This document shows, in pieces, positions 37,747 through 64,000 of a stretch of 64,000 bases of DNA. Origin of the DNA: Eledone cirrhosa (Eukaryota). The stretch's first letter is position 1; each line of letters opens with the position of its first letter. The notes below the pieces were generated by a model. The model worked only from the letters and a program-made list of their open reading frames with translations. It was not told where the DNA came from and ran no database searches. Location of the stretch: NCBI GenBank assembly GCA_964016885.1, contig OZ024762.1, positions 28,768,001 to 28,832,000 of the forward strand, read 5' to 3'. A program made the translations under genes and the position numbers.

Positions 37747-37919
37747 TATAATACATAGAAATTGAACAAAGACTGCGTTACACTGTCTTATGTAATCAGT
37801 AACGTAATCCATGATACATTAAAAAAGACGATATTATATATAAACTGCATTAGGAGAAAATTAGTGACGGAAATATATTAATGTTTATTTAAGCGATGGC
37901 TAACCGGAAGTGTTGACAT
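37747..37919 (-). promoter_or_regulatory. Putative promoter/first-exon region of ZNF-B with a single ETS-type motif ACCGGAAGTG (37903-37912)
   Basis: Homologous to 44359-44513. Both segments lie upstream of a minus-strand ZNF gene, and the motif matches the class I ETS consensus. Confidence 0.55.
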
Positions 37920-38420: not shown

Positions 38421-38499
<79 letters not shown>

Positions 38500-38627: not shown

Positions 38628-38813
<186 letters not shown>

Positions 38814-39386: not shown

Positions 39387-39505
39387 ATTTCATAAAGGAA
39401 TCTCACCACTTCCACTCATATATTAAGAAATGTAGTATTCAGTTGGTAAAGTAATAAGATGTATGAAAGCGTAAGACTGATCTTGGAAGAAGAAAAAGCA
39501 AGTGC

Positions 39506-39549
<44 letters not shown>

Positions 39550-40455: not shown

Positions 40456-43400
40456 AATCATCATCATCATCATCATCATCAACGTTTAACGTCCGTGTTC
40501 CACGCTTGCATAGGTTTGGACGGGGGTTTTCCCACTTGAGGCAAGAGTGATTGTCTTGCTCGCATAGGACTGTCTGGCGGGTTTTCTACAGCTGGATGCC
40601 CTTCCTAACACCAACCACATTTACAGTGTGGGGCTGGGAGGTTTTTACCGTGTTGCCTACACGGCCACATTACAGCGTGGACTGTCTGGCGGGTTTTCTA
40701 CAGCTGGATGCCCTTCCTAACACCAACCACATTTACAGTGTGGGGCTGGGAGGTTTTTACCGTGTTGCCTACACGGCCACATTACAGCGTGGACTGTGTG
40801 TTTTTTGTCGTGACACCTACACGATCTCATTTGTTTCGGCCTGGATGTTGTGGCACCAACATAACTTTACATTGAAAGGGGCAGTGTGGATGGGGTGGGG
40901 TGGTGGGATGGGGGTGTGTTTTGTTAGAGATGCCTACTGACTGTTGTAGGTTTTACTTTGTATTTAGGTAAGGCGGGTCTTCTCTATTACTGAGTACCGC
41001 CAAAGGTCTCGGTCCAGTGACATTGTCTTGGAGAGGTGTAAGCGTGTGAGGTCGGAATTTATCATGTCGTCCCAGGTTTTTCTGGGTCTGCCTACTCCGT
41101 GGCTACCGTCTATCTTTATTGCCCTGCACTTTGTTATACAGCTGTCGTCTTTCATGCGCATCACGTAGCCTTCTCTCGAGTAAACAACATCTGATCCCTC
41201 TTATTTCTAATTTTTTCCTTAGTTCGTTTATGCTTAGCCGTTCACGTATATTACTATTACACATCCAGCGGAGCATGCAAGCTTCGTTCCTCTCTAGTCT
41301 GCGTATATCCTCTGCACACAATGCCCAGGTCTCACTGCAATGCAGCATTGCTGTTCGTATGCAGGCATCATATAACCTGCCTTTCATTTTTAAGGAGAAC
41401 CCTTTAGCGGCTAATAGTGGTATAAGCTCTCTGAACTTTTTCCATCCAGTTCTGACTCTAGCTACTGTACTTTCAGAGCACCCTCCCCAACTGCTGATTT
41501 TGTCACCCAGGTAACGGAAGCTGTCCACTATTTCTATGGAACCCTCTGCGCAATTGAAAGAGCTAGTATTTTGTGGGCACTTGCTGCTACTTATTGCACC
41601 AGAGCACTGGCCACATGTAAAATCTATGTTCTTAGTTAGCTTACCTGTGATCCCACTATATCTTTTATGCACCCATACTTTGCATTTGGGACATAAAATG
41701 GAGTTTCTACTTACGCCTTTCCTACACACTGAGCATGGCCATTTCCCGGAAGGGACCACCGCCTTATTTTCTTTCCTACAAACTAGAACTTTAGTCTTAG
41801 CCAGGTTAATTTTAAGGCCTTTTGATTCTAGGCCGTGCTTCCATGTTTGGAATTTCTTCTCTAGCTCGGTCATTGATTCAGCTATGAGCGTTAGATCATC
41901 TGCATATAGGAGTTCCCATGGGCAGCCGGTCTTGAACTCCTCTGTTATAGCCTGAAGGGCAATAATAAATAGTAGGGGGTTAAGAACAGAGCCCTGATGG
42001 ACACCAACTTTTACGCTAAACTCTTCACTATATTCGTTGTTAATTCTAACCTTGCTCACTATTTATTTATACATGGCTTGTATAGCTCTCACAAGCCATT
42101 CGTCAACACCTAGTTTTCTAAGAGCCCGCCAGATAATGGAACAGGGGACTCTCTCGAAGGATTTCTCCAAGTCAACAAAAGCTAAGTATAGGGGTTTACT
42201 TTTAGCTAGGTACTTATCCTGTAGTTGTCGTACAATGAAAAGAGCGTCTGTGGTACTTTTGCCTGACACAAACCCGAACTGCATTTCATCTAGATCAATT
42301 CTCTCTCTGATTAGTTGCGCTATTACTTTTTCCGTGACCTTCATGACCTGGTAGATTAATTTAATGCCTCTATAGTTACACCTATCTAGGGCATCTCCTT
42401 TACCCTTGTAACAGTTAATGATGATGCTGCTATGCCAGTCCTTCGGAACAACCCCATTCTGTATGACTTGGTTTACTATCCGGGTGACCATGGTGTGTCC
42501 CACCGTTCCAGAGGCTTTCAGCATCTCAGCAACTATTTCCGAAGGCCCAGCCGCCTTACCCGTCTTCATATCTTTGATTGCCTTACTTATTATACTACCT
42601 TCGACTAACACTGCTGGTCCCTCTATTGGGTCGATGTAGGGGAGACTGTTGTTCTCCTCATTTAGAAGCCTTTCGTAGTGACACTTCCAAGCTACCTTCT
42701 TATCAGCGTCGGTGATGGCAAGTATGCCATCATCATTAAGTACACACTTCTCCCCGACAATATCACAGTTTTCCTTGACACATTGCCTAGCAATCCTGAA
42801 CACCTCACGTTTTTGGTCCTCACGTTGTAGAACATGCTTGAACTTTCTTTCCTCTGCTTCCCTTCTTGCGAAGTACTCTTGTCTCCTAGCTTCCCTCCTG
42901 GCCACTTGATAGTCTTCTCTACTTCCCACATCCTGCCATACTTTCCAAGCCTGCTTTTTGGCCTTAATTGACTCCTCCACCTTACTGTTCCACCACCATG
43001 TTACTCTCCTCCTACCCACAGGCCTGCTCCAGCCACAGACTTCGTCTGCCGCCGTCAGCAGGTTTGCTTTCAGGAATTCCCACTGTTCCTCTATATTATA
43101 CGTCTCTAATTGCTCTTCCTTACTGTCGAAAGCATCAAGTAATATGCTTTGAAATTTATTTCTGGCTATGGGGTCCTTTAGCTTCCATATTTTTCTCCTG
43201 GAGATAGTCCTCTTCTGCTGTCTAGTACGTCTCGTCCTGACTATGAGGTCGCTAATTATCAGTCTATGTTGGGAGGTGCATTCTTCATGGAGGAGGGATT
43301 TAGTGTTAACAACAGACACTCTGTCACGTCTTCTGGTAAGGATATAATCTACCTGGCTTGTGTGTTCCCCCGATCTATAGGTGATCAAGTGATTGTCTCG

Positions 43401-44085
43401 TTTTTTGAAGTTAGTGTTACAGATAGTTAGGTTATTTGCGTCACAGAATTCCAGGATTCTGGAGCCTACCTCATTTCTAGTACCGAACCCATAGCCTCCA
43501 TGGATTCCGTCATAGCCGTCACAATGTTGTCCAACGTGACCATTTAGGTCGCCAGCAATAATTATATAGTCACTGTCGGTTATTTGGGAGGTAGCGAGCA
43601 TCAGTGTCTCATAGAATCTGTCTTTTATAGCGCCGGGCAGTCCGGATTGGGGTGCGTACGCAGATATTATTGTCACAGTAGTTCTATTGAGGACAAGTCT
43701 TATTTTAATTATTCTGTCGTTCACTCTATTTACGTCTATTATCTTATCTGCCCACTTTTCTGCTACCATGATTCCTACTCCACCCAGCCCATTGTCATTT
43801 CCCACCCAGAAGAGCTTATAGCATCGTTCTTTACCCACGATGAATCTAGCAGACCCTCCCCTCCACCTGGTCTCTTGAATACAACAAACATCGACCTCCT
43901 TACGTTCAAGCATTTCTATAACCTCGTTAGAGCGACCCTTTAAGGTGCCTACATTCATGGTACCAACTCTGAAGTTTTGGATTGCGTTTGGAGGGTGGGA
44001 GCGGTTGGGCGCGGGGGGGGGGGGATGGGGTTATGTTAGCCATCCGCGCCCGAAACAAGGAGGAGTGCTTGCATTCTCGTCCACG
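40456..44085 (-). mobile_element. Near full-length RTE LINE (APE endonuclease + RT), inactivated
   Basis: ORFs 42063-43958, 41103-42059 and 40964-41164 join via one in-frame TAA and a 14-bp deletion. NVGTL, IQETRW, SAYAPQ, GDLNGH and VDYI endonuclease motifs. (GAT)n tail. Same family as 6568-8834. Confidence 0.95.
40567..40790. repeat. 112-bp tandem duplication in the RTE 3'UTR
   Basis: ggactgtctggcggg...cattacagcgt twice; single in the copy at 6568-8834. Confidence 0.9.
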
Positions 44086-44358
44086 AGATATATATTAATA
44101 TTATTATTATTTTAGCAGTATCGGTAGAGGGTCGGACGCCATGCTGAGTTCAAATCCCGCCGAGGTTAACTTTGCCATTCATCCTTACGGGGTCGATAAA
44201 ATAAAGTACCAGTAATACACTGGATAATTGCTGGCCTTCTGCCAAAAGTAGAAACAATTATTATTTTCTGCTAGCATGTCTAGTGTGCATATTGATATTA
44301 TATGCAGGTATATATACATGTAGATATGATACATCAAATAAAATCGTAATTGACAATA

Positions 44359-44513
44359 TATAATACATAGAAATTGAACGAAGACTGTTACACTGTCTTA
44401 TGTAATCAGTAACATAATCCATGATAAATTAAAAAAGACGATTATATATAATAACTGCATTTGGAGAAAATTAGTATGTTTATTTAAGTGATCGCCACCG
44501 GAAGTGTTGAGAT
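44359..44513 (-). promoter_or_regulatory. Putative promoter/first-exon region of ZNF-C, abutting the satellite
   Basis: Paralogous to 37747-37919; ACCGGAAGTG at 44497-44506. Confidence 0.55.
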
Positions 44514-47500
44514 CACACTCTCTCTTTCTATATATATGGTAGTGGAAGTGGTAGCAATGATATACCAAAAGTATTGACATCACATTCTCTCTTTCTATAT
44601 ATATGGTAGTTGAAGTGGTGGTGGTGGTGGTGGCAATGATATACCGGAAGTGTTGACATCACACTCTCTCTTTCTATATATATGGTAGTTGAAGCGGTGG
44701 TGGTGGTGGCAACGATATACCGGAAGTGTTGACATCACACTCTCTCTTTCTATATATATGGTAGTAGAAGTGGTGGTGGTGGTGGTGGCAACGATATACC
44801 AGAAGTTTTGACATCACAAACACTCTCTTTCTATATATATGGTAGCAGAAGTGGTGGTGGTGTTGGTGGCAATGATATACCGGAAGTGTTGACATCACAC
44901 ACTCTCTTTCTATATATATGGTAGTTGAAGTGATGGTGGTGGTGGCAATGATATACCGGAAGTGTTGACATCACATTCTCTCTTTCTATATATATGGTAG
45001 TAGAAGTGGTGGTGGTGGTGCTGGTGGCAATGATATACCGTGAGTGTTGACATCACACTCTCTCTTTCTATATATATGGTAGTTGAAGTGGTGGTGGTGG
45101 TGGGGGCAATGATATACTGGAAGTGTTGACGTCACACTCTCTCTTTCTATATATATGGTAGTTGAAGTGGTGGTGGTGGTGGTGGCAATGATATACCGGA
45201 GGTGTTGACATCCCACTTTCTCCTTCAAAATAGTAGTTGAAGTGGTGGTGGTGGTGGCAATGATATACGGGGAGTGTTGACATCACACTCTCTCTTTCTA
45301 TATATATGGTAGTAGAAGTGGTGGTGGTGGTGGTGCGGGAAATGATATACCGGGAGTGTTGACATCACACTCTCTCTTTCTATATATATGGAAGTTGAAG
45401 TGATGGTGGTGGTGGCAATGATATACCGGAGGTGTTGACATCACACTCTCTCTTTCTATATATATGGTAGTAGAAGTGGTGGTGGTGGAGGTGGTGGAAA
45501 TGATATACCGGAAGTGTTGACATCGCATTCTCTCTTTCTATATATATGGTAGTAGAAGTGGTGGTGGTGGTGGTGGCAATGATATACCGGAGGTGTTGAC
45601 ATCACACTCTCTCTTTCTATATATATGGTAGTAGAAGTGGTGGTGGTGGTGCTGGTGGCAATGATATACCGTGAGTGTTGACATCACACTCTCTCTTTCT
45701 ATATATATGGTAGTTGAAGTGGTGGTGGTGGTGCTGGTGGCAATGATATACCGTGAGTGTTGACATCACACTCTCTCTTTCTATATATATGGTAGTTGAA
45801 GAGGTGGTGGTGGTGGCAATGATATACCGTGAGTGTTGACATCACACTCTCTCTTTCTATATATATGGTAGTTGTAGTGGTGGTGGTGCTGGCAATGATA
45901 TACCGGAAGTGTTGACATCACACTCTCTCTTTCTATATATATGGTAGTAGAAGTGGTGGTGGTGGTGGCAATGATATACCGGAAGTGTCGACATCACACT
46001 CTCTCTTTCTATATATATGGTAGTGGAAGTGGTGGTGGTGGTGGTGGTGGTGGTGGTGGCAATGATATACCGAAAGTGTTGACATCACACTCTCTCTTTC
46101 TATATATATGGTAGTTGAAGCGGTGGTGGTGGTGGCAACGATATACCGGAAGTGTTGACATCACACTCTCTCTTTCTATATATATGGTAGCAGAAGTGGT
46201 GGTGGTGTTGGTGGCAATGATATACCGGAAGTGTTGACATCACACACTCTCTTTCTATATATATGGTAGTTGAAGTGGTGGTGGTGGTGGTGGCAATGAT
46301 ATACCGGAGGTGTTGACATCACACTCTCTCTTTCTATATATATGGTAGTAGAAGTGGTGGTGGTGGTGGCAATGATATACCGGGAACGTTGACATCACAC
46401 TCTCTCTTTCTATATATATGGTAGTAGAAGTGGTGGTGGTGGTGGCAATGATATACCGTGAGTGTTGACATCACACTCTCTCTTTCTATATATATGGTAG
46501 TTGAAGTGGTGGTGGTGGTGGCAATGATATACCGTGAGTGTTGACATCACACTCTCTCTTTCTATATATATGGTAGTAGAAGTGGTGGTGGTGGTGGCAA
46601 TGATATACCGGAAGTGTCGACATCACACTCTCTCTTTCTATATATATGGTAGTGGAAGTGGTGGTGGTGGTGGTGGTGGTGGTGGTGGCAATGATATACC
46701 GAAAGTGTTGACATCACACTCTCTCTTTCTATATATATGGTAGTAGAAGCGGTGGTGGTGGTGGTGGGGGAAATGATATACCGGAAGTGTTGACATCACA
46801 CTCTCTCTTTCTATATATATGGTAGTAGAAGCGGTGGTGGTGGTGGTGGGGGAAATGATATACCGAGAGTGTTGACATCACTCTCTCTCTTTCTATATAT
46901 ATGGTAGTTGAAGTGGTGGTGGCGGTGGCAATGATATACCGGAAGTGGTGGTGGTGGGGGAAATGATATACCGGGAGTGTTGACATCACACTCTCTCTTT
47001 CTATATATATGGTAGTTGAAGTGGTGGTGGTGGTGGTGGCAATGATATACCGGAAGTGTATACACCACACTCTCTCTTTCTATATATATGGTAGTTGAAG
47101 TGGTGGTGGCGGTGGGAATGATATACCGGAAGTGGTGGTGGTGGGGGAAATGATATACCGGGAGTGTTGACATCACACTCTCTCTTTCTATATATATGGT
47201 AGTTGAAGTGGTGGTGGTGGTGGTGGTGGTGGTGGTGGTGGTGGTAATGATATACCGAAAGTGTTGCCATCACACTCTCTCTTTCTATATACATGGTAGT
47301 TGAAGTGGTGGTGGTGGTGGTGGTGGTGCCAATGATATACCGGAGGTGTTGACATCACACTCTCTCTTTCTATATATATGGTAGTTGAAGTGGTGGTGGT
47401 GGTGGCAATGATATACCGGGAGTGTTGACATCACACTCTCTCTTTCTATATATATGGTAGTTGAAGTGGTGGTGGTGTTGGTGGGGGAAATGATATACCG

Positions 47501-50500
47501 GGAGTGTTGACATCACACTCTCTCTTTCTATATATATGGTAGTAGAAGTGGTGTTGGTGGTGGTGGTGGCAATGATATACCGGAGGTGTTGACATCACAC
47601 TCTCTCTTTCTATATATATGGTAGTAGAAGTGGTGGTGGTGGTGGTGGCAATGATATACCGGAGGCGTTGACATCACACTCTCTCTTTCTATATATATGG
47701 TAGTTGAAGTGGTGGTGGTGGTGGCAATGATATACCGGAAGTGTTGACATCACACTCTCTCTTTCTATATATATGGTAGTTGAAGTGGTGGTGGTGGTTG
47801 CAATGATATACCGGAAGTGTTGACATCACACTCTCTCTTTCTATATATATGGTAGTTGAAGTGGTGGTGGTGGTGGCAATGATATACTGGAGGTGTTGAC
47901 ATCACACTCTCTCTTTCTATATATATGGTAGTAGAAGTGGTGGTGGTGGTTGTGGTGGTGGTGGTGGCAATGATATACCGGAGGTGTTGACATCACACTC
48001 TCTCTTTCTATATACATGGTAGTTGAAGTGGTGGTGGTGGGGGAAATGATATACCGGGAGTTTTGACATCACACTCTCTCTTTCTATATATATGGTAGTT
48101 GAAGTGGTGGTGGTGGTGGAGGCAATGATATACCGGAAGTGTATACACCACACTCTCTCTTTCTATATATATGGTAGTTGAAGTGGTGGTGGTGGTGGGG
48201 GTGGTGGCAATGATATACCGGAAATGTTGACATCACACTCTCTCTTTCTATATACATGGTAGTTGAAGTGGTGGTGGTGGTGGTGGTGGTGGTGGCAATG
48301 ATATACCGAAAGTGTTGCCATCGCACTCTCTCTTTCTATATACATGGTAGTTGAAGTGGTGGTGGTAGTGGCAATGATATACCGGGAGTGTTGACATCAC
48401 ACTCTCTCTTTCTATATATATGGTAGTGGAAGTGGTGGTGGTGGTGTGGGAAATGATATACCGGGAGTGTTGACATCACACTCTCTCTTTCTATATATAT
48501 GGTAGTGGAAGTGGTGGTGGTGGTGGCAATGATATACCGGAGGTGTTGACATCACACTCTCTCTTTCTATATATATGGTAGTTGAAGTGGTGGTGGTGGT
48601 GGCAATGATATACCGGAAGTGTTGACATCACACTCTCTCTTTCTATGTATATGGTAGTTGAAGTGGTGGTGGTGGCAATGATATACCGGAAGTGTTGACA
48701 TCACACACTCTCTTTCTATATATATGGTAGTTAAAGTGGTGGTGGTGGTGGTGGTGGCAATGATATACCGGAAGTGTTGACATCACACTCTCTCTTTCTA
48801 TATATATGGAGGTTGAAGTGGTGGTGGTGGTGGTGGTGGTGGTGGTGGCAATGATATACCGGAAGTGTTGACATCACACTCTCTCTCTTTCTATATATAT
48901 CGTAGTGGAAGTGGTGGTGGTGGTGGTGGTGGTGTTGGCAATGATATACCGTGAGTGTTGAAATCACACTCTCTCTTTCTATATATATGGTAGTAGAAGT
49001 GGTGGTGGTGGTTGTGGTGGTGGTGGTGGCAATGATATACCGGAGGTGTTGACATCACACTCTCTCTTTCTATATATATGGTAGTAGAAGTGGTGGTGGT
49101 GGTGGTGGGGGAAATGATATACCGGGAGTGTTGACATCACACTCTCTCTTTCTATATATATATGGTAGTAAAAGTGGTGGTGGTGGTGGTGGCAATGATA
49201 TACCGGAGGCGTTGACATCACACTCTCTCTTTCTATATATATGGTAGTAGAAGTGGTGGTGGTGGTGGCAATGATATACCGGAAGTGTTGATATCACACT
49301 CTCTCTTTCTATATATATGGTAGTAGAAGTGGTGGTGGTGATGGTGGTGGCAATGATATACCGGAGGTGTTGACATCACACTCTCTCTTTCTATATATAT
49401 ATGGTAGTAGAAGTGGTGATGGTGGTGGTGGCAATGATATACCGGAGGCGTTGACATCACACTCTCTCTTTCTATATATATGGTAGTTGAAGTGGTGGTG
49501 GTGGTGGCAATGATATACCGGAAGTGTTGACATCACACTCTCTCTTTCTATATATATGGTAGTAGAAGTGGTGGTGGTGGTGGTGGCAATGATATACCGG
49601 AAGTGTTGACATCACACTCTCTCTTTCTATATATATGGTAGTAGAAGTGGTGGTGGTGGTGGTGGCAATGATATACCGGAAGTGTTGACATCACACTCTC
49701 TCTTTCTATATATATGGTAGTTGAAGTGGTGGTGGTGGTGGTGGTGGTGGTGGTGGCAATGATATACCGGAAGTGTTGACATCACACTCTCTCTCTTTCT
49801 ATATATATCGTAGTGGAAGTGGTGGTGGTGGTGGTGGTGGTGGTGGCAATGATATACCGGAAGTGTTGACATCACACTCTCTCTTTCTATATATATGGTA
49901 GTTGAAGTGGTGGTGGTGGTTGCAATGATATACCGGAAGTGTATACACCACACTCTCTCTTTCTATATATATGGTAGTTGAAGTGGTGGTGGCGGTGGCA
50001 ATGATATACCGGAAGTGGTGGTGGTGGGGAAAATGATATACCGGGAGTGTTGACACCACACTCTCTCTTTCTATATATATGGTAGTTGAAGTGGTGGTGG
50101 TGGTTGCAATGATATACCGGAAGTGTATACACCACACTCTCTCTTTCTATATATATGGTAGTTGAAGTGGTGGTGGCGGTGGTAATGATATACCGGAGTG
50201 GTGGTGGTGGGGGAAATGATATACCGGGAGTGTTGACATCACACTCTCTCTTTCTATATATATGGTAGTAGAAGTGGTGGTGGTGGTGGTGGCAATGATA
50301 TACCGGAAGTGTTGACATCACACTCTCTCTTTCTATATATATGGAAGTTGAAGTGATGGTGGTGGTGGCAATGATATACCGGAGGTGTTGACATCACACT
50401 CTCTCTTTCTATATATATGGTAGTAGAAGTGGTGGTGGTGGTGGTGGTGGAAATGATATACTGGAAGTGTTGACATCACATTCTCTCTTTCTATATATAT

Positions 50501-53500
50501 GGTAGTAGAAGTGGTGGTGGTGGTGCTGGTGGCAATGATATACCGTGAGTGTTGACATCACACTCTCTCTTTCTATATATATGGTAGTTGAAGTGGTGGT
50601 GGCGGTGGCAATGATATACCATGAGTGTTGACATCACACTCTCTCTTTCTATATATATGGTAGTAGAAGTGGTGGTGGTGGTGGCAATGATATACCGGAA
50701 GTGTCGACATCACACTCTCTCTTTCTATATATATGGTAGTGGAAGTGGTGGTGGTGGTGGTGGTGGTGGTGGTGGCAATGATATACCGAAAGTGTTGACA
50801 TCACACTCTCTCTTTCTATATACATGGTAGTTGAAGTGGTGGTGGTGGTGGTGGCAATGATATACCGAAAGTGTTGACATCACACTCTCTCTTTCTATAT
50901 ATATGGTAGTAGAAGTGGTGGTGGTGGTGGTGGGGGAAATGATATACCGAGAGTGTTGACATCACACTCTCTCTTTCTATATATATGGTAGTTGAAGTGG
51001 TGGTGGTGGTGGTGGTGGTGGCAATGATATACCGGAAGTGTTGACATCACACTCTCTCTCTTTCTATATATATGGTAGTTGAAGTGGTGGTGGCGGTGGC
51101 AATGATATACCGGAAGTGGTGGTGGTGGGGGAAATGATATACCGGGAGTGTTGACATCACACTCTCTCTTTCTATATATATGGTAGTTGAAGTGGTGGTG
51201 GTGGTGGTGGCAATGATATACCGGAAGAGTATACACCACACTCTCTCTTTCTATATATATGGTAGTTGAAGTGGTGGTGGCGGTGGCAATGATATACCGG
51301 AAGTGGTGGTGGTGGGGGAAATGATATACCGGGAGTGTTGATATCACACTCTCTCTTTCTATATATATGGTAGTTGAAGTGGTGGTGGTGGTGGTGGTGG
51401 TGGTGGTGGTGGTAATGATATACCGAAAGTGTTGCCATCACACTCTCTCTTTCTATATACATGGTAGTTGAAGTGGTGGTGGTGGTGGTGGCGGTGGCAA
51501 TGATATACCGGAAGTGGTGTTGGTGGGGGAAATGATATACCGGGAGTGTTGACATCACACTCTCTCTTTCTATATATATGGTAGTAGAAGTGGTGTTGGT
51601 GGTGGTGGTGGCAATGATATACCGGAGGTGTTGACATCACACTCTCTCTTTCTATATATATGGTAGTAGAAGTGGTGGTGGTGGTGATGGTGGCAATGAT
51701 ATACCGAAAGTGTTGCCATCGCACTCTCTCTTTCTATATACATGGTAGTTGAAGTGGTGGTGGTGGTGGTGGTGGTGGCAATGATATACCGGAGGTGTTG
51801 ACATCACACTCTCTCTTTCTATATATATGGTAGTTGAAGTGGTGGTGGTGGTAGTGGCAATGATATACCGGGAGTGTTGACATCACACTCTCTCTTTCTA
51901 TATATATGGTTGTAGAACTGGTGGTGGTGGTGGTGGCAATGATATACCGGAGGTGTTGACATCACACTCTCTCTTTCTATATATATGGTAGTAGAAGTGG
52001 TGGTGGTGGTGATGGTGGCAATGATATACCGGAGGTGTTGACATCACACTCTCTCTTTCTATATATATATGGTAGTAGAAGTGGTGGTGGTGGTGTGGGA
52101 AATGATATACCGGGAGTGTTGACATCACACTCTCTCTTTCTATATATATGGTAGTAGAAGTTGAAGTGGTGGTGGTGGTGGCAATGAAATACCGGAGGCG
52201 TTGACATCACACTCTCTCTTTCTATATATATGGTAGTTGAAGTGGTGGTGGTGGTGGCAATGATATACCGGAGGTGTTGACATCACACTCTCTCTTTCTA
52301 TATATATGGTAGTTGAAGTGGTGGTGGTGGTGGCAATGATATACCGGAGGTGTTGATATCACACTCTCGCTTTCTATATATATGGTAGTTGAAGTGGTGG
52401 TGGTGGTGGCAATGATATACCGTGAGTGTTGACATCACACTCTCTCTTTCTATATATATGGTAGTTGAAGTGGTGGTGGTGGTGGAGGCAATGATATACC
52501 GGAAGTGTATACACCACACTCTCTCTTTCTATATATATGGTAGTTGAAGTGGTGGTGGTGGTGGTGGTGGCGGTGGTGGCAATGATATACCGGAAATGTT
52601 GACATCACACCCTCTCTTTCTATATACATGGTAGTTGAAGTGGTGGTGGTGGTGGTGGAGGTGGTGGTGGTGGCAATGATATACCGAAAGTGTTGCCATC
52701 GCACTCTCTCTTTCTATATACATGGTAGTTGAAGTGGTGGTGGTGGTGGTGGTGGTGGCAATGATATACCGGAGGTGTTGACATCACACTCTCTCTTTCT
52801 ATATATATGGTAGTTGAAGTGGTGGTGGTGGTGGTGGCAATGATATACCGGAGGTGTTGACATCACACTCTCTCTTTCTATATATATGGTAGTAGAAGTG
52901 GTGGTGGTGGTGATGGTGGCAATGATATACCGAAAGTGTTGCCATCGCACTCTCTCTTTCTATATACATGGTAGTTGAAGTGGTGGTGGTGGTGGTGGTG
53001 GTGGCAATGATATACCGGAGGTGTTGACATCACACTCTCTCTTTCTATATATATGGTAGTTGAAGTGGTGGTGGTGGTAGTGGCAATGATATACCGGGAG
53101 TGTTGACATCACACTCTCTCTTTCTATATATATGGTTGTAGAACTGGTGGTGGTGGTGGTGGCAATGATATACCGGAGGTGTTGACATCACACTCTCTCT
53201 TTCTATATATATGGTAGTAGAAGTGGTGGTGGTGGTGATGGTGGCAATGATATACCGGAGGTGTTGACATCACACTCTCTCTTTCTATATATATATGGTA
53301 GTAGAAGTGGTGGTGGTGGTGTGGGAAATGATATACCGGGAGTGTTGACATCACACTCTCTCTTTCTATATATATGGTAGTAGAAGTTGAAGTGGTGGTG
53401 GTGGTGGCAATGAAATACCGGAGGCGTTGACATCACACTCTCTCTTTCTATATATATGGTAGTTGAAGTGGTGGTGGTGGTGGCAATGATATACCGGAGG

Positions 53501-56500
53501 TGTTGACATCACACTCTCTCTTTCTATATATATGGTAGTTGAAGTGGTGGTGGTGGTGGCAATGATATACCGGAGGTGTTGATATCACACTCTCGCTTTC
53601 TATATATATGGTAGTTGAAGTGGTGGTGGTGGTGGCAATGATATACCGGGAGTGTTGACATCACACTCTCTCTTTCTATATATATGGTAGTTGAAGTGGT
53701 GGTGGTGGTGGTGGTGGTGGTGGTGGTGGTGGTGGTGGCAATGATATACCGGAAGTGTTGATATCACACTCTCTCTTTCTATATATATGGTAGTTGAAGT
53801 GGTGGTGGTGGTGGTGGTGGTGGTGGTGGCAATGATATACCGGAAGTGTTGACATCACACTCTCTCTCTTTCTATATATATCGTAGTGGAAGTGGTGGTG
53901 GTGGTGGTGGTGGTGGTGGCAATGATATACCGTGAGTGTTGACATCACACTCTCTCTTTCTATATATATGGTAGTAGAAGTGGTGGTGGTGGCTGTGGTG
54001 GTGGTGGTGGCAATGATATACCGGAGGTGTTGACATCACACTCTCTCTTTCTATATATATGGTAGTTGAAGTGGTGGTGGTGGTGGCAATGATATACCGG
54101 GAGTGTTGACATCACACTCTCTCTTTCTATATATATGGTAGTGGAAGTGGTGGTGGTGGTGGTGGTGGTGGTGGTGGTGGCAATGATATACCGGAAGTGT
54201 ATACACCACACTCTCTCTTTCTATATATATGGTAGTGGAAGTGGTGGTGGTGGTGGTGCTGGTGGTGGTGGTGGCAATGATATACCGGAAATGTTGACAT
54301 CACACTCTCTCTTTCTATATATATGGTAGTTGAAGTGGTGGTGGTGGTGGTGGTGATGGTGGTGGCAATGATATACCGGAAATGTATACACCACACTCTC
54401 TCTTTCTATATACATGGTAGTTGAAGTGGTGGTGGTGGTGGTGGTGGTGGCAATGATATACCGGAGGTGTTGACATCACACTCTCTCTTTCTATATATAT
54501 GGTAGTAGAAGTGGTGGTGGTGGTGGTGGGGGAAATGATATACCGGGAGTGTTGACATCACACTCTCTCTTTCTATATATATATGGTAGTAGAAGTGGTG
54601 GTGGTGGTGGTGGTGGCAATGATATACCGGAGGCGTTGACATCACACTCTCTCTTTCTATATATATGGTAGTAGAAGTGGTGGTGGTGGTGGCAATGATA
54701 TACCGGAGGTGTTGACATCACACTCTCTCTTTCTATATATATGGTAGTAGAAGTGGTGGTGGTGGTGGTGGTGGCAATGATATACCGGAAGTGTTGACAT
54801 CACACTCTCTCTTTTTATATATATGGTCGTAGAAGTGGTGGTGGTGGTGGTGGCAATGATATACCGGAAGTGTTGACATCACACTCTCTCTTTCTATATA
54901 TATGGTAGTAGAAGTGGTGGTGGTGGTGGTGGCAATGATATACCGGAAGTGTTGACATCACACTCTCTCTTTCTATATATATGGTAGTTGAAGTGGTGGT
55001 GGTGGTGGTGGTGGCAATGATATACCGGAAGTGTTGACATCACACTCTCTCTCTTTCTATATATATCGTAGTGGAAGTGGTGGTGGTGGTGGTGGTGGTG
55101 GCAATGATATACCGGAAGTGTTGACATCACACTCTCTCTTTCTATATATATGGTAGTTGAAGTGGTGGTGGTGGTTGCAATGATATACCGGAAGTGTATA
55201 CATCACACTCTCTCTTTCTATATATATGGTAGTTGAAGTGGTGGTGGCGGTGGCAATGATATACCGGAAGTGGTGGTGGTGGGGGAAATGATATACCGGG
55301 AGTGTTGACATCACACTCTCTCTTTCTATATATATGGTAGTTGAAGTGGTGGTGGTGGTGGTGGCAATGATAAACCGGAAGTGTATACACCACACTCTCT
55401 CTTTCTATATATATGGTAGTTGAAGTGGTGGTGGCGGTGGCAATGATATACCGGAAGTGGTGGTGGTGGGGGAAATGATATACCGGGAGTGTTGACATCA
55501 CACTCTCTCTTTCTATATATATGGTAGTAGAAGTGGTGGTGGTGGTGGTGGCAATGATATACCGGGAGTGTTGACATCACACTCTCTCTTTCTATATATA
55601 TGGTAGTTGAAGTGGTGGTGGCGGTGGCAATGATATACCGGAAGTGGTGCTGGTGGGGGAAATGATATACCGGGAGTGTTGACATCACACTCTCTCTTTC
55701 TATATATATGGTAGTTGAAGTGTTGGTGGCGGTGGTGGCAATGATATACCGGAAATGTTGACATCACACTCTCTCTTTCTATATATATGGTAGTAGAAGT
55801 GGTGGTGGTGGTGGTGGTGGGGGAAATGATATACCGGGAGTGTTGACATCACACTCTCTCTTTCTATATATATGGTAGTAGAAGTGGTGGTGGTGGTGGT
55901 GGCAATGATATACCGGAAGTGTTGACATCACACACTCTCTTTCTATATATATGGTAGTTGAAGTGGTGGTGGTGGTGGTGGTGGTGGTGGTGGCAATGAT
56001 ATACCGGAAGTGTTGACATCACACTCTCTCTTTCTATATATATGGTAGTTGAAGTGGTGGTGGTTGTGGTGGTGGTGGTGGTGGTGGCAATGATATACCG
56101 GAAGTGTTGACATCACACTCTCTCTTTCTATATATATCGTAGTGGAAGTGGTGGTGGTGGTGGTGGTGGTGGTGGCAATGATATACCGGAAGTGTTGACA
56201 TCACACTCTCTCTCTTTCTATATATATCGTAGTGGAAGTGGTGGTGGTGGTGGTGGTGGTGGTGGCAATGATATACCGGAAGTGTTGACATCACACTCTC
56301 TCTTTCTATATATATGGTAGTTGAAGTGGTGGTGGTGGTTGCAATGATATACCGGAAGTGTATACATCACACTCTCTCTTTCTATATATATGGTAGTTGA
56401 AGTGGTGGTGGCAGTGGCAATGATATACCGGAAGTGGTGGTGGTGGGGGAAATGATATACCGGGAGTGTTGACATCACACTCTCTCTTTCTATATATATG

Positions 56501-59500
56501 GTAGTTGAAGTGGTGGTGGTGGTGGTGGCAATGATAAACCGGAAGTGTATACACCACACTCTCTCTTTCTATATATATGGTAGTTGAAGTGGTGGTGGCG
56601 GTGGCAATGATATACCGGAAGTGGTGGTGGTGGGGGAAATGATATACCGGGAGTGTTGACATCACACTCTCTCTTTCTATATATATGGTAGTTGAAGTGG
56701 TAGTGGTGGTGGTGGTGGCAATGATATACCGGGAGTGTTGACATCACACTCTCTCTTTCTATATATATGGTAGTTGAAGTGGTGATGGTAGTGGCAATGA
56801 TATACCGAAAGTGTTGACATCACACTCTCTCTTTCTATATATATGGTAGTTGAAGTGGTGGTGGTGTTGGTGGGGGAAATGATATACCGGGAGTGTTGAC
56901 ATCACACTCTCTCTTTCTATATATATGGTAGTAGAAGTGGTGGTGCTGGTGGTGGTGGTGGTGGTGGCAATGATATACCGGAAGTGTTGACATCACACTC
57001 TCTCTCTTTCTATATATATCGTAGTGGAAGTGGTGGTGGTGGTGGTGGTGGTGGTGGTGGTGGCAATGATATACCGGAAGTGTTGACATCAGACACTCTC
57101 TTTATATATATATGGTAGTTGAAGTGGTGGTGGTGGTGGTGGCAATGATATACCGGAAGTGTTGACATCACACTCTCTCTTTCTATATATATGGTAGTTG
57201 AAGTGGTGGTGGCGGTGGTGGTGGTGGTGGTGGCAATGATATACCGGAAATGTTGACATCACACTCTCTCTTTCTATATATATGGTAGTTGAAGTGGTGG
57301 TGGCGGTGGTGGTGGTGGTGGTGGCAATGATATACCGGGAGTGTTGACATCACACTCTCTCTTTCTATATATATGGTAGTTGAAGTGGTAGTGGTGGTGG
57401 CAATGCTATACCGGAGGTGTTGACATCACACTCTCTCTTTCTATATATATGGTAGTTGATGTGGTGGTGGTGGTGGTGGCAATGATATACCGGAAGTGTT
57501 GATATCACACTCTCTCTTTCTATATATATGGTAGTTGAAGTGGTGGTGGTGGTGGTGGTGGTGGTGGTGGCAATGATATACCGGAAGTGTTGACATCACA
57601 CTCTCTCTCTTTCTATATATATCGTAGTGGAAGTGGTGGTGGTGGTGGTGGTGGTGGTGGTGGCAATGATATACCGTGAGTGTTGACATCACACTCTCTC
57701 TTTCTATATATATGGTAGTAGAAGTGGTGGTGGTGGTTGTGGTGGTGGTGGTGGCAATGATATACCGGAGGTGTTGACATCACACTCTCTCTTTCTATAT
57801 ATATGGTAGTTGAAGTGGTGGTGGTGGTGGCAATGATATACCGGGAGTGTTGACATCACACTCTCTCTTTCTATATATATGGTAGTGGAAGTGGTGGTGG
57901 TGGTGGTGGTGGTGGTGGTGGTGGTGGCAATGATATACCGGAAGTGTATACACCACACTCTCTCTTTCTATATATATGGTAGTGGAAGTGGTGGTGGTGG
58001 TGGTGCTGGTGGTGGTGGTGGCAATGATATACCGGAAATGTTGACATCACACTCTCTCTTTCTATATATATGGTAGTTGAAGTGGTGGTGGTGGTGGTGG
58101 TGATGGTGGTGGCAATGACATACCGGAAATGTATACACCACACTCTCTCTTTCTATATACATGGTAGTTGAAGTGGTGGTGGTGGTGGTGGTGGTGGCAA
58201 TGATATACCGGAGGTGTTGACATCACACTCTCTCTTTCTATATATATGGTAGTAGAAGTGGTGGTGGTGGTGGTGGGGGAAATGATATACCGGGAGTGTT
58301 GACATCACACTCTCTCTTTCTATATATATATGGTAGTAGAAGTGGTGGTGGTGGTGGTGGCAATGATATACCGGAGGCGTTGACATCACACTCTCTCTTT
58401 CTATATATATGGTAGTAGAAGTGGTGGTGGTGGTGGCAATGATATACCGGAAGTGTTGATATCACACTCTCTCTTTCTATATATATGGTAGTAGAAGTGG
58501 TGGTGGTGGTGGTGGTGGCAATGATATACCGGAGGTGTTGACATCACACTCTCTCTTTCTATATATATATGGTAGTAGAAGTGGTGGTGGTGGTGGTGGC
58601 AATGATATACCGGAGGCGTTGACATCACACTCTCTCTTTCTATATATATGGTAGTAGAAGTGGTGGTGGTGGTGGTGGTGGCAATGATATACCGGAAGTG
58701 TTGACATCACACTCTCTCTTTTTATATATATGGTAGTAGAAGTGGTGGTGGTGGTGGTGGCAATGATATACCGGAAGTGTTGACATCACACTCTCTCTTT
58801 CTATATATATGGTAGTAGAAGTGGTGGTGGTGGTGGTGGCAATGATATACCGGAAGTGTTGACATCACACTCTCTCTTTCTATATATATGGTAGTTGAAG
58901 TGGTGGTGGTGGTGGTGGTGGTGGTGGTGGTGGCAATGATATACCGGAAGTGTTGACATCACACTCTCTCTCTTTCTATATATATCGTAGTGGAAGTGGT
59001 GGTGGTGGTGGTGGTGGTGGCAATGATATACCGGAAGTGTATACATCACACTCTCTCTTTCTATATATATGGTAGTTGAAGTGGTGGTGGTGGTGGTGGC
59101 AATGATAAACCGGAAGTGTATACACCACACTCTCTCTTTCTATATATATGGTAGTTGAAGTGGTGGTGGCGGTGGCAATGATATACCGGAAGTGGTGGTG
59201 GTGGGGGAAATGATATACCGGGAGTGTTGACATCACACTCTCTCTTTCTATATATATGGTAGTAGAAGTGGTGGTGGTGGTGGTGGCAATGATATACCGG
59301 GAGTGTTGACATCACACTCTCTCTTTCTATATATATGGTAGTTGAAGTGGTGGTGGCGGTGGCAATGATATACCGGAAGTGGTGCTGGTGGGGGAAATGA
59401 TATACCGGGAGTGTTGACATCACACTCTCTCTTTCTATATATATGGTAGTTGAAGTGTTGGTGGCGGTGGTGGCAATGATATACCGGAAATGTTGACATC

Positions 59501-62500
59501 ACACTCTCTCTTTCTATATATATGGTAGTAGAAGTGGTGGTGGTGGTGGTGGTGGGGGAAATGATATACCGGGAGTGTTGACATCACACTCTCTCTTTCT
59601 ATATATATGGTAGTAGAAGTGGTGGTGGTGGTGGTGGCAATGATATACCGGAAGTGTTGACATCACACACTCTCTTTCCATATATATGGTAGTTGAAGTG
59701 GTGGTGGTGGTGGTGGTGGTGGTGGTGGCAATGATATACCGGAAGTGTTGACATCACACTCTCTCTTTCTATATATATCGTAGTGGAAGTGGTGGTGGTG
59801 GTGGTGGTGGTGGTGGCAATGATATACCGGAAGTGTTGACATCACACTCTCTCTCTTTCTATATATATCGTAGTGGAAGTGGTGGTGGTGGTGGTGGTGG
59901 TGGTGGCAATGATATACCGGAAGTGTTGACATCACACTCTCTCTTTCTATATATATGGTAGTTGAAGTGGTGGTGGTGGTTGCAATGATATACCGGAAGT
60001 GTATACATCACACTCTCTCTTTCTATATATATGGTAGTTGAAGTGGTGGTGGCGGTGGCAATGATATACCGGAAGTGGTGGTGGTGGGGGAAATGATATA
60101 CCGGGAGTGTTGACATCACACTCTCTCTTTCTATATATATGGTAGTTGAAGTGGTGGTGGTGGTGGTGGCAATGATAAACCGGAAGTGTATACACCACAC
60201 TCTCTCTTTCTATATATATGGTAGTTGAAGTGGTGTTGGCGGTGGCAATGATATACCGGAAGTGGTGGTGGTGGGGGAAATGATATACCGGGAGTGTTGA
60301 CATCACACTCTCTCTTTCTATATATATGGTAGTTGAAGTGGTAGTGGTGGTGGTGGTGGTGGTGGTGGTGGCAATGATATACCGAAAGTGTTGCCATCAC
60401 ACTCTCTCTTTCTATATATATGGTAGTTGAAGTGGTGGTGGTGGTGGCAATGATATACCGGGAGTGTTGACATCACACTCTCTCTTTCTATATATATGGT
60501 AGTTGAAGTGGTGATGGTAGTGGCAATGATATACCGAAAGTGTTGACATCACACTCTCTCTTTCTATATATATGGTAGTTGAAGTGGTGGTGGTGTTGGT
60601 GGGGGAAATGATATACCGGGAGTGTTGACATCACACTCTCTCTTTCTATATATATGGTAGTAGAAGTGGTGGTGGCAATGATATACCGGAGGCGTTGACA
60701 TCACACTCTCTCTTTCTATATATATGGTAGTTGAAGTGGTGGTGGTGGTGGCAATGATATACCGGAAGTGTTGACATCACACTCTCTCTTTCTATATATA
60801 TGGTAGTTGAAGTGGTGGTGGTGTTGGTGGGGGAAATGATATACCGGGAGTGTTGACATCACACTCTCTCTTTCTATATATATGGTAGTAGAAGTGGTGT
60901 TGGTGGATGTGGTGGTGGCAATGATATACCGGAGGTGTTGACATCACACTCTCTCTTTCTATATATATGGTAGTTGAAGTGGTGGTGGTGGTGGCAATGA
61001 TATACCGGGAGTGTTGACATCACACTCTCTTTTTCTATATATATGGTAGTTGAAGTGGTGATGGTAATGGCAATGATATACCGAAAGTGTTGACATCACA
61101 CTCTCTCTTTCTATATATATGGTAGTTGAAGTGGTGGTGGTGTTGGTGGGGGAAATAATATACCGGGAGTGTTGACATCACACTCTCTCTTTCTATATAT
61201 ATGGTAGTAGAAGTGGTGTTGGTGGTGGTGGTGGCAATGATATACCGGAGGTGTTGACATCACACTCTCTCTTTCTATATATATGGTAGTAGAAGTGGTG
61301 GTGGTGGTGGTGGCAATGATATACCGGGAGTGTTGACATCACACTCTCTCTTTCTATATATATGGTAGTTGAAGTGGTGGTGGCGGTGGCAATGATATAC
61401 CGGAAGTGGTGGTGGTGGGGGAAATGATATACCGGGAGTGGTGACATCACACTCTCTCTTTCTATATATATGGTAGTAGAAGTGGTGGTGGTGGTGGTGG
61501 CAATGATATACCGGGAGTGTTGACATCACACTCTCTCTTTCTATATATATGGTAGTTGAAGTGGTGGTGGCGGTGGCAATGATATACCGGAAGTGGTGCT
61601 GGTGGGGGAAATGATATACCGGGAGTGTTGACATCACACTCTCTCTTTCTATATATATGGTAGTTGAAGTGTTGGTGGCGGTGGTGGCAATGATATACCG
61701 GAAATGTTGACATCACACTCTCTCTTTCTATATATATGGTAGTAGAAGTGGTGGTGGTGGTGGTGGTGGGGGAAATGATATACCGGGAGTGTTGACATCA
61801 CACTCTCTCTTTCTATATATATGGTAGTAGAAGTGGTGGTGGTGGTGGTGGCAATGATATACCGGAAGTGTTGACATCACACACTCTCTTTCTATATATA
61901 TGGTAGTTGAAGTGGTGGTGGTGGTGGTGGTGGTGGTGGTGGCAATGATATACCGGAAGTGTTGACATCACACTCTCTCTTTCTATATATATGGTAGTTG
62001 AAGTGGTGGTGGTTGTGGTGGTGGTGGTGGTGGTGGCAATGATATACCGGAAGTGTTGACATCACACTCTCTCTTTCTATATATATCGTAGTGGAAGTGG
62101 TGGTGGTGGTGGTGGTGGTGGTGGCAATGATATACCGGAAGTGTTGACATCACACTCTCTCTCTTTCTATATATATCGTAGTGGAAGTGGTGGTGGTGGT
62201 GGTGGTGGTGGTGGCAATGATATACCGGGAGTGTTGACATCACACTCTCTCTTTCTATATATATGGTAGTTGAAGTGGTGGTGGTGGTTGCAATGATATA
62301 CCGGAAGTGTATACATCACACTCTCTCTTTCTATATATATGGTAGTTGAAGTGGTGGTGGCGGTGGCAATGATATACCGGAAGTGGTGGTGGTGGGGGAA
62401 ATGATATACCGGGAGTGTTGACATCACACTCTCTCTTTCTATATATATGGTAGTTGAAGTGGTAGTGGTGGTGGTGGTGGCAATGATATACCGGGAGTGT

Positions 62501-64000
62501 TGACATCACACTCTCTCTTTCTATATATATGGTAGTTGAAGTGGTGATGGTAGTGGCAATGATATACCGAAAGTGTTGACATCACACTCTCTCTTTCTAT
62601 ATATATGGTAGTTGAAGTGGTGGTGGTGTTGGTGGGGGAAATGATATACCGGGAGTGTTGACATCACACTCTCTCTTTCTATATATATGGTAGTAGAAGT
62701 GGTGGTGCTGGTGGTGGTGGTGGTGGTGGCAATGATATACCGGAAGTGTTGACATCACACTCTCTCTCTTTCTATATATATCGTAGTGGAAGTGGTGGTG
62801 GTGGTGGTGGTGGTGGTGGTGGTAGCAATGATATACCGGAAGTGTTGACATCAGACACTCTCTTTATATATATATGGTAGTTGAAGTGGTGGTGGTGGTG
62901 GTGGCAATGATATACCGGAAGTGTTGACATCACACTCTCTCTTTCTATATATATGGTAGTTGAAGTGGTGGTGGCGGTGGTGGTGGTGGTGGTGGCAATG
63001 ATATACCGGAAATGTTGACATCACACTCTCTCTTTCTATATATATGGTAGTTGAAGTGGTGGTGGCGGTGGTGGTGGTGGTGGTGGCAATGATATACCGG
63101 GAGTGTTGACATCACACTCTCTCTTTCTATATATATGGTAGTTGAAGTGGTAGTGGTGGTGGCAATGCTATACCGGAGGTGTTGACATCACACTCTCTCT
63201 TTCTATATATATGGTAGTTGATGTGGTGGTGGTGGTGGTGGCAATGATATACCGGAAGTGTTGATATCACACTCTCTCTTTCTATATATATGGTAGTTGA
63301 AGTGGTGGTGGTGGTGGTGGTGGTGGTGGTGGCAATGATATACCGGAAGTGTTGACATCACACTCTCTCTCTTTCTATATATATCGTAGTGGAAGTGGTG
63401 GTGGTGGTGGTGGTGGTGGTGGTGGCAATGATATACCGTGAGTGTTGACATCACACTCTCTCTTTCTATATATATGGTAGTAGAAATGGTGGTGGTGGTT
63501 GTGGTGGTGGTGGTGGCAATGATATACCGGAGGTGTTGACATCACACTCTCTCTTTCTATATATATGGTAGTTGAAGTGGTGGTGGTGGTGGCAATGATA
63601 TACCGGGAGTGTTGACATCACACTCTCTCTTTCTATATATATGGTAGTGGAAGTGGTGGTGGTGGTGGTGGTGGTGGTGGTGGTGGTGGCAATGATATAC
63701 CGGAAGTGTATACACCACACTCTCTCTTTCTATATATATGGTAGTGGAAGTGGTGGTGGTGGTGGTGCTGGTGGTGGTGGTGGCAATGATATACCGGAAA
63801 TGTTGACATCACACTCTCTCTTTCTATATATATGGTAGTTGAAGTGGTGGTGGTGGTGGTGGTGATGGTGGTGGCAATGATATACCGGAAATGTATACAC
63901 CACACTCTCTCTTTCTATATACATGGTAGTTGAAGTGGTGGTGGTGGTGGTGGTGGTGGCAATGATATACCGGAGGTGTTGACATCACACTCTCTCTTTC
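44497..64000. repeat. Satellite array, ~76-85 bp monomer, roughly 240 copies, continues beyond the window
   Basis: Consensus accggaagtgttgacatcacactctctctttctatatatatggtagt(t/a)gaagt(ggt)nggcaatgatat. Confidence 0.98.

What the first reader, a model, noticed from the sequence alone, without database searches (positions are those of the whole stretch)
44359..64000. A ZNF promoter ETS site amplified into a >19-kb satellite
Seen: the ~150 bp just left of the array (44359-44513) is paralogous to 37747-37919, and each segment lies upstream of a minus-strand ZNF gene. At 37903 the segment ends in a single accggaagtgttgacat. At 44497 the homologous motif is the first unit of the satellite, and the same 17-mer is part of the monomer consensus. 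Known: ACCGGAAGTG is the class I ETS (GABP/ELK) consensus, common at proximal promoters. As I recall, short tandem repeats of about this size were reported as enriched near octopus C2H2 genes. Inference: the satellite arose in place from a promoter element. It may act as a copy-number-variable enhancer, an ETS sink or a silencer for the ZNF cluster.
Basis: partly seen in the sequence, partly recalled or inferred. Interest (0 to 1): 0.8.

Follow-up and report, generated by a model that had tools for sequence, protein, structure and literature searches.

The report
Satellite grown inside a transposon-like repeat
A satellite of more than 19 kb beside a zinc-finger gene cluster starts at a 17-base word inside one copy of a very common repeat, likely a Helitron-type transposon, so the ETS transcription-factor motif it multiplies is probably a passenger and not a zinc-finger gene switch.

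Summary
44359-44513 matches 37747-37919 (143 of 155 aligned bases), and the shared 17-mer opens an array of about 250 units.

The promoter reading is mostly not supported. Contigs laid on 36300-38400 show that the segment is part of a high-copy family running to about 38110. It has 6-14 times the depth of the neighbouring ZNF exon in three runs and 0.13 times in the fourth. The satellite-free form is common.

The family boundary falls on a Helitron-type A|TC start, 9 of 10 identical to a maize Helitron end. A palindrome plus CTAG lies at the other copy's far end, but the target T is missing.

The ETS core is the most variable part of the monomer: intact in 111 of 248 units. ZNF-A lacks the segment, and ZNF-C has a premature stop.

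Best reading: a transposon-seeded satellite, as known from oyster Helitrons, with ETS as a passenger. Still open: both copies sit about 1 kb upstream of paralogous splice acceptors, in gene orientation, and one carries a GC box, so a transposon-donated promoter is not excluded. No run on record as RNA was listed.

The parts
44497..64000 (.). Satellite array, about 250 units, open at the window end: 17-mer + (CT)n/(TA)n filler + (GTG)n tract; 76-97-bp units plus 32-bp short units; recent block duplications of 1226, 3735, 5762 and 5949 bp
44497..44513 (+). 17-mer shared by element and monomer (ETS-like 10-mer inside); first unit has one mismatch to the monomer consensus
44271..44513 (-). Copy C of the high-copy element (likely 3' part), running into the array at the 17-mer
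   Evidence: paralogy; family contigs carry the 44303-44358-type flank, table 7
44271..44306 (-). Candidate Helitron-type 3' end: 21-nt AT-rich palindrome 44286-44306, CTAG 11 nt beyond it at 44271-44274; next base C, not T
   Evidence: pattern occurs 0.17 per kb in 1-44490; fold no better than shuffles
37747..38109 (-). Copy B of the element, satellite-free, with one 17-mer; left part truncated or replaced at 37747
   Evidence: (depth, 89-113 contigs sharing family letters, loose ends)
38093..38110 (-). Candidate Helitron-type 5' end, A|TC; 9 of 10 identical to the maize Hel1158 5' decamer; coincides with the family boundary at 38109-38111
38080..38086 (-). GC box (Sp/KLF-like; label recalled), the only one in 1-44490
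37903..37919 (+). Single 17-mer with perfect ETS-like 10-mer
36391..36765 (-). Predicted non-coding exon of the ZNF-A/B family (acceptor at 36766, GTAAGT donor at 36390); paralogue near 14.4-14.8 kb
   Evidence: exon-shaped cover in run X4, (hint only)
39447..39522 (-). Predicted splice-acceptor region of ZNF-C, 74% like the 36.77-kb acceptor
38817..39386 (-). ZNF-C ORF; stop at 38814-38816 inside finger 7 of 9, finger 5 lacks a His; likely degenerate
40463..44095 (-). LINE with endonuclease and reverse transcriptase, ORF in two frames; part of it 94% identical to 6567-8730
44144..44267 (+). SINE-like repeat (label from a tRNA B-box-like word, by eye), 93% identical to 22518-22641
29019..29951 (-). 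ZNF-B ORF (9 canonical fingers)
3158..4852 (-). ZNF-A ORF (19 canonical fingers); close paralogue of ZNF-B; no element copy upstream

Best explanation
The array starts at a 17-mer inside one copy of a high-copy repeat of about 0.45 kb that is likely a non-autonomous Helitron-type transposon, and it likely grew there by tandem duplication, with the ETS motif carried as a likely passenger. Shown: the shared 17-mer, the many-copy family on both sides of it, a family edge on an A|TC start, and erosion of the ETS core across units. Inferred: a simple-repeat filler of about 50 bp came to lie between two copies of the 17-mer. Unequal exchange or rolling-circle copying then multiplied '17-mer + filler', first unit by unit and lately in blocks of 1.2-5.9 kb. 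The array evolves without selection to keep ETS sites. Its main effect is probably passive (a repeat block beside an already degenerate ZNF-C).
For: Family status: on 37720-38110, X1 summed depth is 55,000-519,000 against a median of 9 for seven listed long contigs, and 89-113 contigs share family letters at 37879, 38002, 38033, 38048 and 38075. Element/exon depth ratio is 13.6 (X1), 11.6 (X4), 6.1 (X5) and 0.13 (X7), which suggests lineage-specific expansion. Boundary: nine X4 contigs leave at 38111 with mixed flanks (agreement 0.45), and contigs of the next repeat start at 38109-38110. The only A+TC decamer within one mismatch of the Hel1158 5' end in 64 kb, both strands, is at 38109. A 21-nt palindrome lies 11 nt from a CTAG in copy C, the canonical spacing. 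Copies B and C are 92% identical while their introns share only low-complexity matches. ETS core divergence is 16.5% against 2.4% for other columns; the core is intact in 111 of 248 units. Helitron-borne arrays dominate the oyster satellitome, and O. vulgaris has 84 Helitron families and 80 satellite families.
Against: The CTAG is followed by C, not T; the palindrome is AT-rich and folds no better than shuffles. The two ends come from two different copies, and no empty site was seen. The kind of runs X1 and X4 is not on record, and the tool warns that summed contig depth is no copy number; if X1 is RNA or open-chromatin data, the estimate of about 30,000 copies falls. Both copies lie in gene orientation about 1 kb (977 bp; 1086 bp after removing LINE and SINE) from paralogous acceptors, which two independent insertions would rarely give. 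Homology of monomer and element beyond the 17-mer was not significant, so in-place origin is not proven. The far end of the array is not in the window.
Confidence: 0.5

Rival explanations
1. The element is, or has been co-opted as, the promoter or first exon of these ZNF genes. The array would then have expanded from the promoter's ETS site and would change ZNF-C output.
For: A perfect ETS 10-mer (chance about 7e-5 in 365 bp at local composition) and the only GC box of 1-44490 lie in one AT-rich element, in gene orientation. The 36391-36765 exon has an acceptor and so needs an upstream first exon. Both copies are about 1 kb from paralogous acceptors. X4/X1 depth drops about tenfold only in the predicted introns and stays at exon level across the element (hint only). 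Precedent: bat HelibatN3 spread a captured NUBPL promoter, and C. elegans Helitrons carry functional heat-shock elements.
Against: The family is 6-14 times deeper than the ZNF exon in three of four runs. The flank 37649-37719 is low-depth (545 in X1), so copy B is joined locus-specifically. ZNF-A lacks it. In X7 the ETS bin is the shallowest full bin of the element (126 against 375-2190) and contigs skip it. The ETS core erodes in the array. ZNF-C has a premature stop. None of the 15 joints shown links 37.8 kb to the 36766 acceptor (9 more were not shown).
Confidence: 0.2
2. The satellite is an existing family from elsewhere in the genome that was joined to this element copy by recombination at the shared 17-mer, or was captured by the element, and did not arise here.
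For: About 50 of the 67 bases of the first unit have no counterpart in either element copy. The monomer's 17-mer matches copy B exactly but not the adjoining copy C. Oyster satellites occur element-bound, free and one-sided, with recombination proposed. One X4 contig runs from the 17-mer into monomer sequence, which fits arrays here or elsewhere.
Against: An exact 17-mer shared by two unrelated sequences is improbable, so the monomer still most simply derives from this family. The first two units are the most aberrant (short GTG tract, extra changes), as expected for the old edge of an array grown in place (inference).
Confidence: 0.2
3. The shared segment is the 3' flank of tandemly duplicated ZNF-C-type genes: copy B lies behind ZNF-C, and copy C would lie behind an unseen gene beyond the array.
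For: Copy B is about 0.7 kb from the ZNF-C stop, and both copies hold an AATAAA on the minus strand (seen in the sequence). X4/X1 depth stays at exon level from 37081 to 38400.
Against: A sharp family boundary at 38109-38111 separates the element from the DNA nearer ZNF-C, and that DNA is another repeat (24,000-37,000 depth in X7). The ZNF-A and ZNF-B 3' flanks lack it.
Confidence: 0.1

Closest known systems
Helitron/Helentron-borne satellite arrays of Crassostrea gigas (Cg_HINE elements, Cg170/HindIII; PMC7492417, PMC8268682; passages and supplement rows read)
   Same: A mollusc-type non-autonomous element with tandem repeats inside; 75.6% of the oyster satellitome resembles Helitron central repeats; arrays with element sequence on one side only are common.
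   Different: Oyster monomers are mostly 140-180 bp and arrays average up to 5 units (longest 29 in that assembly); here about 250 units of 76-97 bp. Here the satellite-free element is common, and the ends look like canonical Helitron (TC/CTAG), not Helentron subterminal inverted repeats.
Canonical non-autonomous Helitrons (definition in PMC4067079; Helraiser/HelibatN3 in PMC4778049; passages read)
   Same: 5' A|TC; palindrome 11 nt before CTAG; high copy number; promoter-like words inside, as in HelibatN3.
   Different: Target T absent, palindrome AT-rich and 21 nt, ends seen in different copies; no autonomous partner or empty site shown; promoter activity untested.
C. elegans Helitron-acquired heat-shock elements (PMC6927752; passages read)
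   Same: A transcription-factor site multiplied in tandem inside a Helitron near genes.
   Different: There binding and induction were shown by ChIP and RNA-seq. Here nothing is measured and 137 of 248 units have lost the core.
Beta-satellite at human 19p12 ZNF clusters (Eichler 1998; only the title seen in a reference list) and the recalled 70-90-bp repeats near octopus C2H2 genes (Albertin 2015; not seen, recalled)
   Same: Short-unit tandem repeats inside a C2H2 gene cluster; this window also has 49-, 61-, 79- and 85-bp arrays.
   Different: Only one of three ZNF genes has this array, so it is not shown to be part of a repeated gene cassette. Sequence relation to those repeats not tested.

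Membership tests
Canonical Helitron (non-autonomous) | 5' end TC, preceded by A | tested here: met
   A|TC at 38110/38109 on the minus strand, at the family boundary seen in contigs; 9 of 10 to the Hel1158 decamer, unique in the window
Canonical Helitron (non-autonomous) | 3' CTRR with a 16-20-nt palindrome about 11 nt upstream | tested here: inconclusive
Canonical Helitron (non-autonomous) | Insertion between A and T | tested here: not met
   A is present at the 5' end (copy B); the base after the candidate CTAG (copy C) is C. AC was among the rare targets of Helraiser (46 of 1,751 insertions were non-AT). Hence 'Helitron-like', not filed as a member.
Canonical Helitron (non-autonomous) | No target-site duplication; empty sites exist | not testable with these tools
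   No genome held; no single copy with both ends in the window
Canonical Helitron (non-autonomous) | Many copies with unrelated flanks | tested here: met
   89-113 contigs share family letters; mixed flanks at 38111 in 9 X4 contigs. Chromosomal spread itself not seen.
Canonical Helitron (non-autonomous) | Ends shared with an autonomous Rep/helicase element | not testable with these tools
   No genome; no such ORF recognised among the frames of 90 aa or more in 1-44500 (read by eye; 6 of them scanned)
Helentron/HINE | Subterminal inverted repeats and T-rich insertion ends | not tested
   No dedicated search; no resemblance by eye to oyster Boxes 1, 2, 4, 5
Satellite DNA | Long head-to-tail array with homogenised units and block amplification | tested here: met
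   19.5 kb, about 250 units, 5.5% mean pairwise difference, exact runs of 636-826 bp at four offsets
ETS-driven proximal promoter | Class I ETS word | tested here: met
   37903-37912 and 98 exact 10-mers in the array; motif as in PMC3464117
ETS-driven proximal promoter | Transcription start within about 120 bp | not testable with these tools
   No run on record as RNA listed; contigs cannot show starts
ETS-driven proximal promoter | Present at the same place in close gene paralogues | tested here: not met
   Absent upstream of ZNF-A, whose exon and intron are 96% identical to ZNF-B's; that block ends at an insertion at 15071, so loss is possible
Selected multi-site ETS enhancer or sink | ETS core conserved more than the rest of the unit | tested here: not met
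   GGAA columns 16.5% divergent against 2.4%; core intact in 111 of 248 units

The most novel reading that the evidence does not exclude
A Helitron-like element carrying a GC box and an ETS site acts as a portable promoter for octopus-type C2H2 genes, and may help copy them by 3' read-through. At ZNF-C its ETS site seeded a satellite that pushed the GC box more than 19 kb away and disabled the gene, and the array is now shedding its ETS sites because a large ETS sink is harmful.
Probability: 0.12. Interest if true: 0.75.

Novelty: new member of a known kind. Interest (0 to 1): 0.3.

Why it matters
As most likely read, it is a clean snapshot of satellite birth: seeded and unseeded copies of one element lie 6.6 kb apart and the seed is defined to the base. 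That is useful for repeat annotation in cephalopods but follows a pattern well described in oysters. It would matter more if the element supplies transcription starts to ZNF genes. That would link a transposon family to the regulation and spread of the large cephalopod C2H2 clusters, and one genome-wide count plus 5'-end data would test it.

Tried and rejected
No whole genome is held, so no genome-wide search was possible.

No RNA holder was listed for 36300-38400; this is no evidence on expression.

Exact-pattern scans found nothing: monomer and shared segment in metagenome contigs, shared segment in viral contigs. These collections are not expected to hold this animal.

Rfam on 36000-46000 gave two sub-threshold mir-297 hits on simple repeats; rejected.

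By eye the monomer seemed to resemble the element for about 45 bp left of the 17-mer. Anchored alignments were no better than shuffles (1458 and 1103 of 2000 on the left, 1219 of 2000 on the right). That test used a unit with a longer GTG tract and may be insensitive.

Active selection against ETS sites was considered. Per copy the core is clearly the most variable window (p=0.004, copies not independent). Per event it is 4 of 17 amplified alleles (p=0.02), or 3 of 16 first hits (p=0.08). Not shown. One column outside the core (56) is more variable than any core column.

The monomer and both element ends fold no better than shuffles.

The species was not fixed. The three ZNF proteins are not in the collection exactly and the LINE search gave mostly unnamed hits, none named as a cephalopod. 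'Octopus-type' rests on finger wording and 57-64% identity to an O. sinensis protein; vertebrate ZNFs scored as high.

Five look-ups of earlier findings gave nothing on this genome or sequence.

An ETS-CRE composite was considered by eye; the spacing differs from the exact overlap in PMC3464117, so it was dropped.

Only 4 of 16 listed runs and only 36300-38400 could be laid; 185 difference rows, 9 joints and 681 loose ends were not shown.
Full report
OBSERVATION. The paralogy is real. 44359-44513 aligns to 37747-37919 at E about 2e-47 and has no other hit in 1-44650; 143 of 155 aligned bases are identical. The 37.9-kb copy holds one 17-mer with a perfect ETS-like 10-mer, the only CCGGAAGT in 1-44400. 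The array starts at 44497 with that 17-mer (16 of 17; the monomer consensus matches 37903 at 17 of 17) and runs without interruption for 19,504 bp, about 250 units. Of 248 parsed units, 229 are 70-103 bp and 19 are 31-32 bp. Units differ by 5.5% on average, and exact runs of 636-826 bp at offsets 1226, 3735, 5762 and 5949 show recent block duplication.

SETTING. Three minus-strand C2H2 ORFs lie at 3158-4852 (A), 29019-29951 (B) and 38817-39386 (C). A and B belong to a duplicated block, 1-15071 matching 24509-37054; C is about 65% identical to them in DNA. C has a stop inside finger 7 of 9 and one finger lacking a His. A LINE (40.46-44.09 kb) and a SINE-like repeat lie between C and the shared segment. 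The host is probably an octopus, by finger wording and 57-64% identity to an O. sinensis protein, but no call fixed the species. A predicted non-coding exon at 36391-36765 has an acceptor 74% like the ZNF-C acceptor. Each copy of the shared segment is about 1 kb from one of these acceptors (977 bp; 1086 bp once LINE and SINE are removed). Against it, the B and C introns share only low-complexity matches, and ZNF-A has no such segment.

WHAT THE SEGMENT IS. No genome is held, so I laid contigs of 4 of 16 listed runs on 36300-38400 at 80% likeness. None is on record as RNA; X1 and X4 have no recorded kind, X5 and X7 are guessed DNA. From 37720 to about 38110, summed depth in X1 is 55,000-519,000, against a median of 9 for seven listed long contigs. 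At five positions 89-113 contigs share one family letter. Median element/exon depth is 13.6, 11.6 and 6.1 in X1, X4 and X5, and 0.13 in X7. If X1 is genomic, that is about 30,000 element copies against about 2,300 exon copies. The second figure is near published octopus C2H2 counts of about 1,800-2,289 (PMC6279123, passages). The tool warns that such depth is no copy number, so only 'many copies, more than the ZNF exon in three runs' is claimed. The family runs on across the 17-mer without satellite (35 X1 contigs carry a variant at 37924), and its left flank is the 44.3-kb type (loose ends in X4). In X7, contigs jump from 37852 to 37901-37982, several skipping the ETS word.

THE ENDS. Nine X4 contigs leave the window at 38111 into mixed flanks, and contigs of the neighbouring repeat begin at 38109-38110. 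On the minus strand this point reads A|TC and matches the 5' decamer of maize Hel1158 at 9 of 10 (PMC10095026, table passage); no other such site exists in the 64 kb. Canonical Helitrons have 5' TC, 3' CTRR, a 16-20-nt palindrome about 11 nt before the end, and insert between A and T (PMC4067079, passages; PMC4778049, passages). In copy C a 21-nt palindrome (44286-44306) lies 11 nt from CTAG (44271-44274); this pattern occurs 0.17 times per kb in the window. But the next base is C, the palindrome is AT-rich and folds no better than shuffles, and the two ends come from different copies. I therefore call the element Helitron-like and do not file it as a member. Helitrons (84 families, 1.0%) and satellites (80 families, 3.1%) are annotated in O. 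vulgaris (PMC13282606, parts 1-2 of 3 and supplement rows). Their consensus files are on Zenodo and were not seen, so this element and monomer may already be in that library.

THE ETS SITE. If the array were kept for ETS binding, the GGAA core should be its most conserved part. It is the opposite: 16.5% divergence against 2.4% elsewhere, and the two top four-base windows both cover it. The core is intact in 111 of 248 units (93 of 229 long, 18 of 19 short), and the two commonest 49-base haplotypes lack it. Counted by event the excess is weak (4 of 17, p=0.02; 3 of 16 first hits, p=0.08). So lack of conservation is shown and active purging is not. About 110 intact sites remain, so binding to an unmethylated array is still possible. 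CpG methylation blocks ETS binding (PMC3464117, passages).

MECHANISM. Shown: the array begins at the 17-mer in an element copy, only the 17-mer is significantly shared with the monomer, and units and blocks were amplified. Inferred: a simple-repeat filler came between two copies of the 17-mer, and unequal exchange or rolling-circle copying expanded the unit. Such routes from transposon to satellite are reviewed in PMC12628747 (passages). The model predicts that the far end of the array returns to the 37920-38109 sequence. Confidence 0.5. Import of an existing satellite at the 17-mer (0.2), a ZNF promoter role for the element (0.2) and a ZNF 3'-flank paralogue (0.1) are the rivals. For the promoter rival: an ETS 10-mer is unlikely by chance in this AT-rich element (7e-5), the only GC box of 1-44490 is in it, and X4/X1 depth drops about tenfold only in the predicted introns (a hint). 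Helitron-spread promoters and tandem factor sites have precedent. None of the 15 joints shown links the element to the 36766 acceptor.

COMPARISON AND NOVELTY. It works like the oyster Helitron/Helentron-borne arrays (PMC8268682, passages and supplement rows; PMC7492417, passages), but with a shorter unit and a far longer array. The recalled report of short repeats near octopus C2H2 genes could not be read and was not found through searches. No description of this monomer turned up in paper searches, or in the scan's earlier findings; most subscription papers and repeat libraries were not searched. Other papers consulted as passages without bearing on the verdict: PMC10547256, PMC12220107, PMC9068888, PMC12001565.

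VERDICT. A real, well-defined satellite, most likely seeded in a Helitron-like high-copy repeat; a new member of a known kind; interest 0.3. The boldest surviving reading, a transposon-donated ZNF promoter disrupted by its own satellite, has probability about 0.12 and interest 0.75.

Noticed in passing
window 22909-23184: Near-perfect 276-bp palindrome (99.3% self-complementary) next to a Penelope-like stretch.
   Followed up: no
window 17133-17531 and 19074-19471: 400-bp direct repeats, 97.8% identical, around a 1.5-kb interior; LTR-like non-autonomous element nested in the 15.1-22.1-kb insertion.
   Followed up: no
window 15072-22100: Penelope-like retroelement pieces (RT-like frame 21090-21965, nuclease-like frame 16429-16977; labels by eye, no Pfam hit) cut the ZNF-A block exactly where its similarity to ZNF-B ends, so ZNF-A may have lost its first exon.
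   Followed up: partly
window 36391-36765 and about 14430-14790: Predicted 375-nt non-coding exon; contigs suggest hundreds of copies in X7 and more in X1, so it may be a 5' exon shared by much of the ZNF family.
   Followed up: partly
window 38814-38816: In-frame stop inside finger 7 of 9 of ZNF-C; ZNF-A and ZNF-B also trail degenerate 78-80-bp finger relics behind their stops.
   Followed up: partly
window 38110-38290: A separate repeat abutting the element, very deep in run X7 (24,000-37,000), ending in AATAAA on the minus strand; possibly a retroelement 3' end.
   Followed up: no
window 9451-9882, 10784-11372, 32047-32172, 33122-33512: 61-bp and 49-bp minisatellites present in both the ZNF-A and ZNF-B blocks with different copy numbers (7.1 vs 2.1; 12 vs 8).
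   Followed up: no
window 46910-62417: The 31-32-bp short units keep the ETS core in 18 of 19 cases and seem to arise by deletion between the two GAAGTG words of the monomer.
   Followed up: partly
window 13960-14020 and 35900-35985: MITE-like inverted ends (Tigger-like; label recalled) in the intron of both the ZNF-A and ZNF-B blocks.
   Followed up: no
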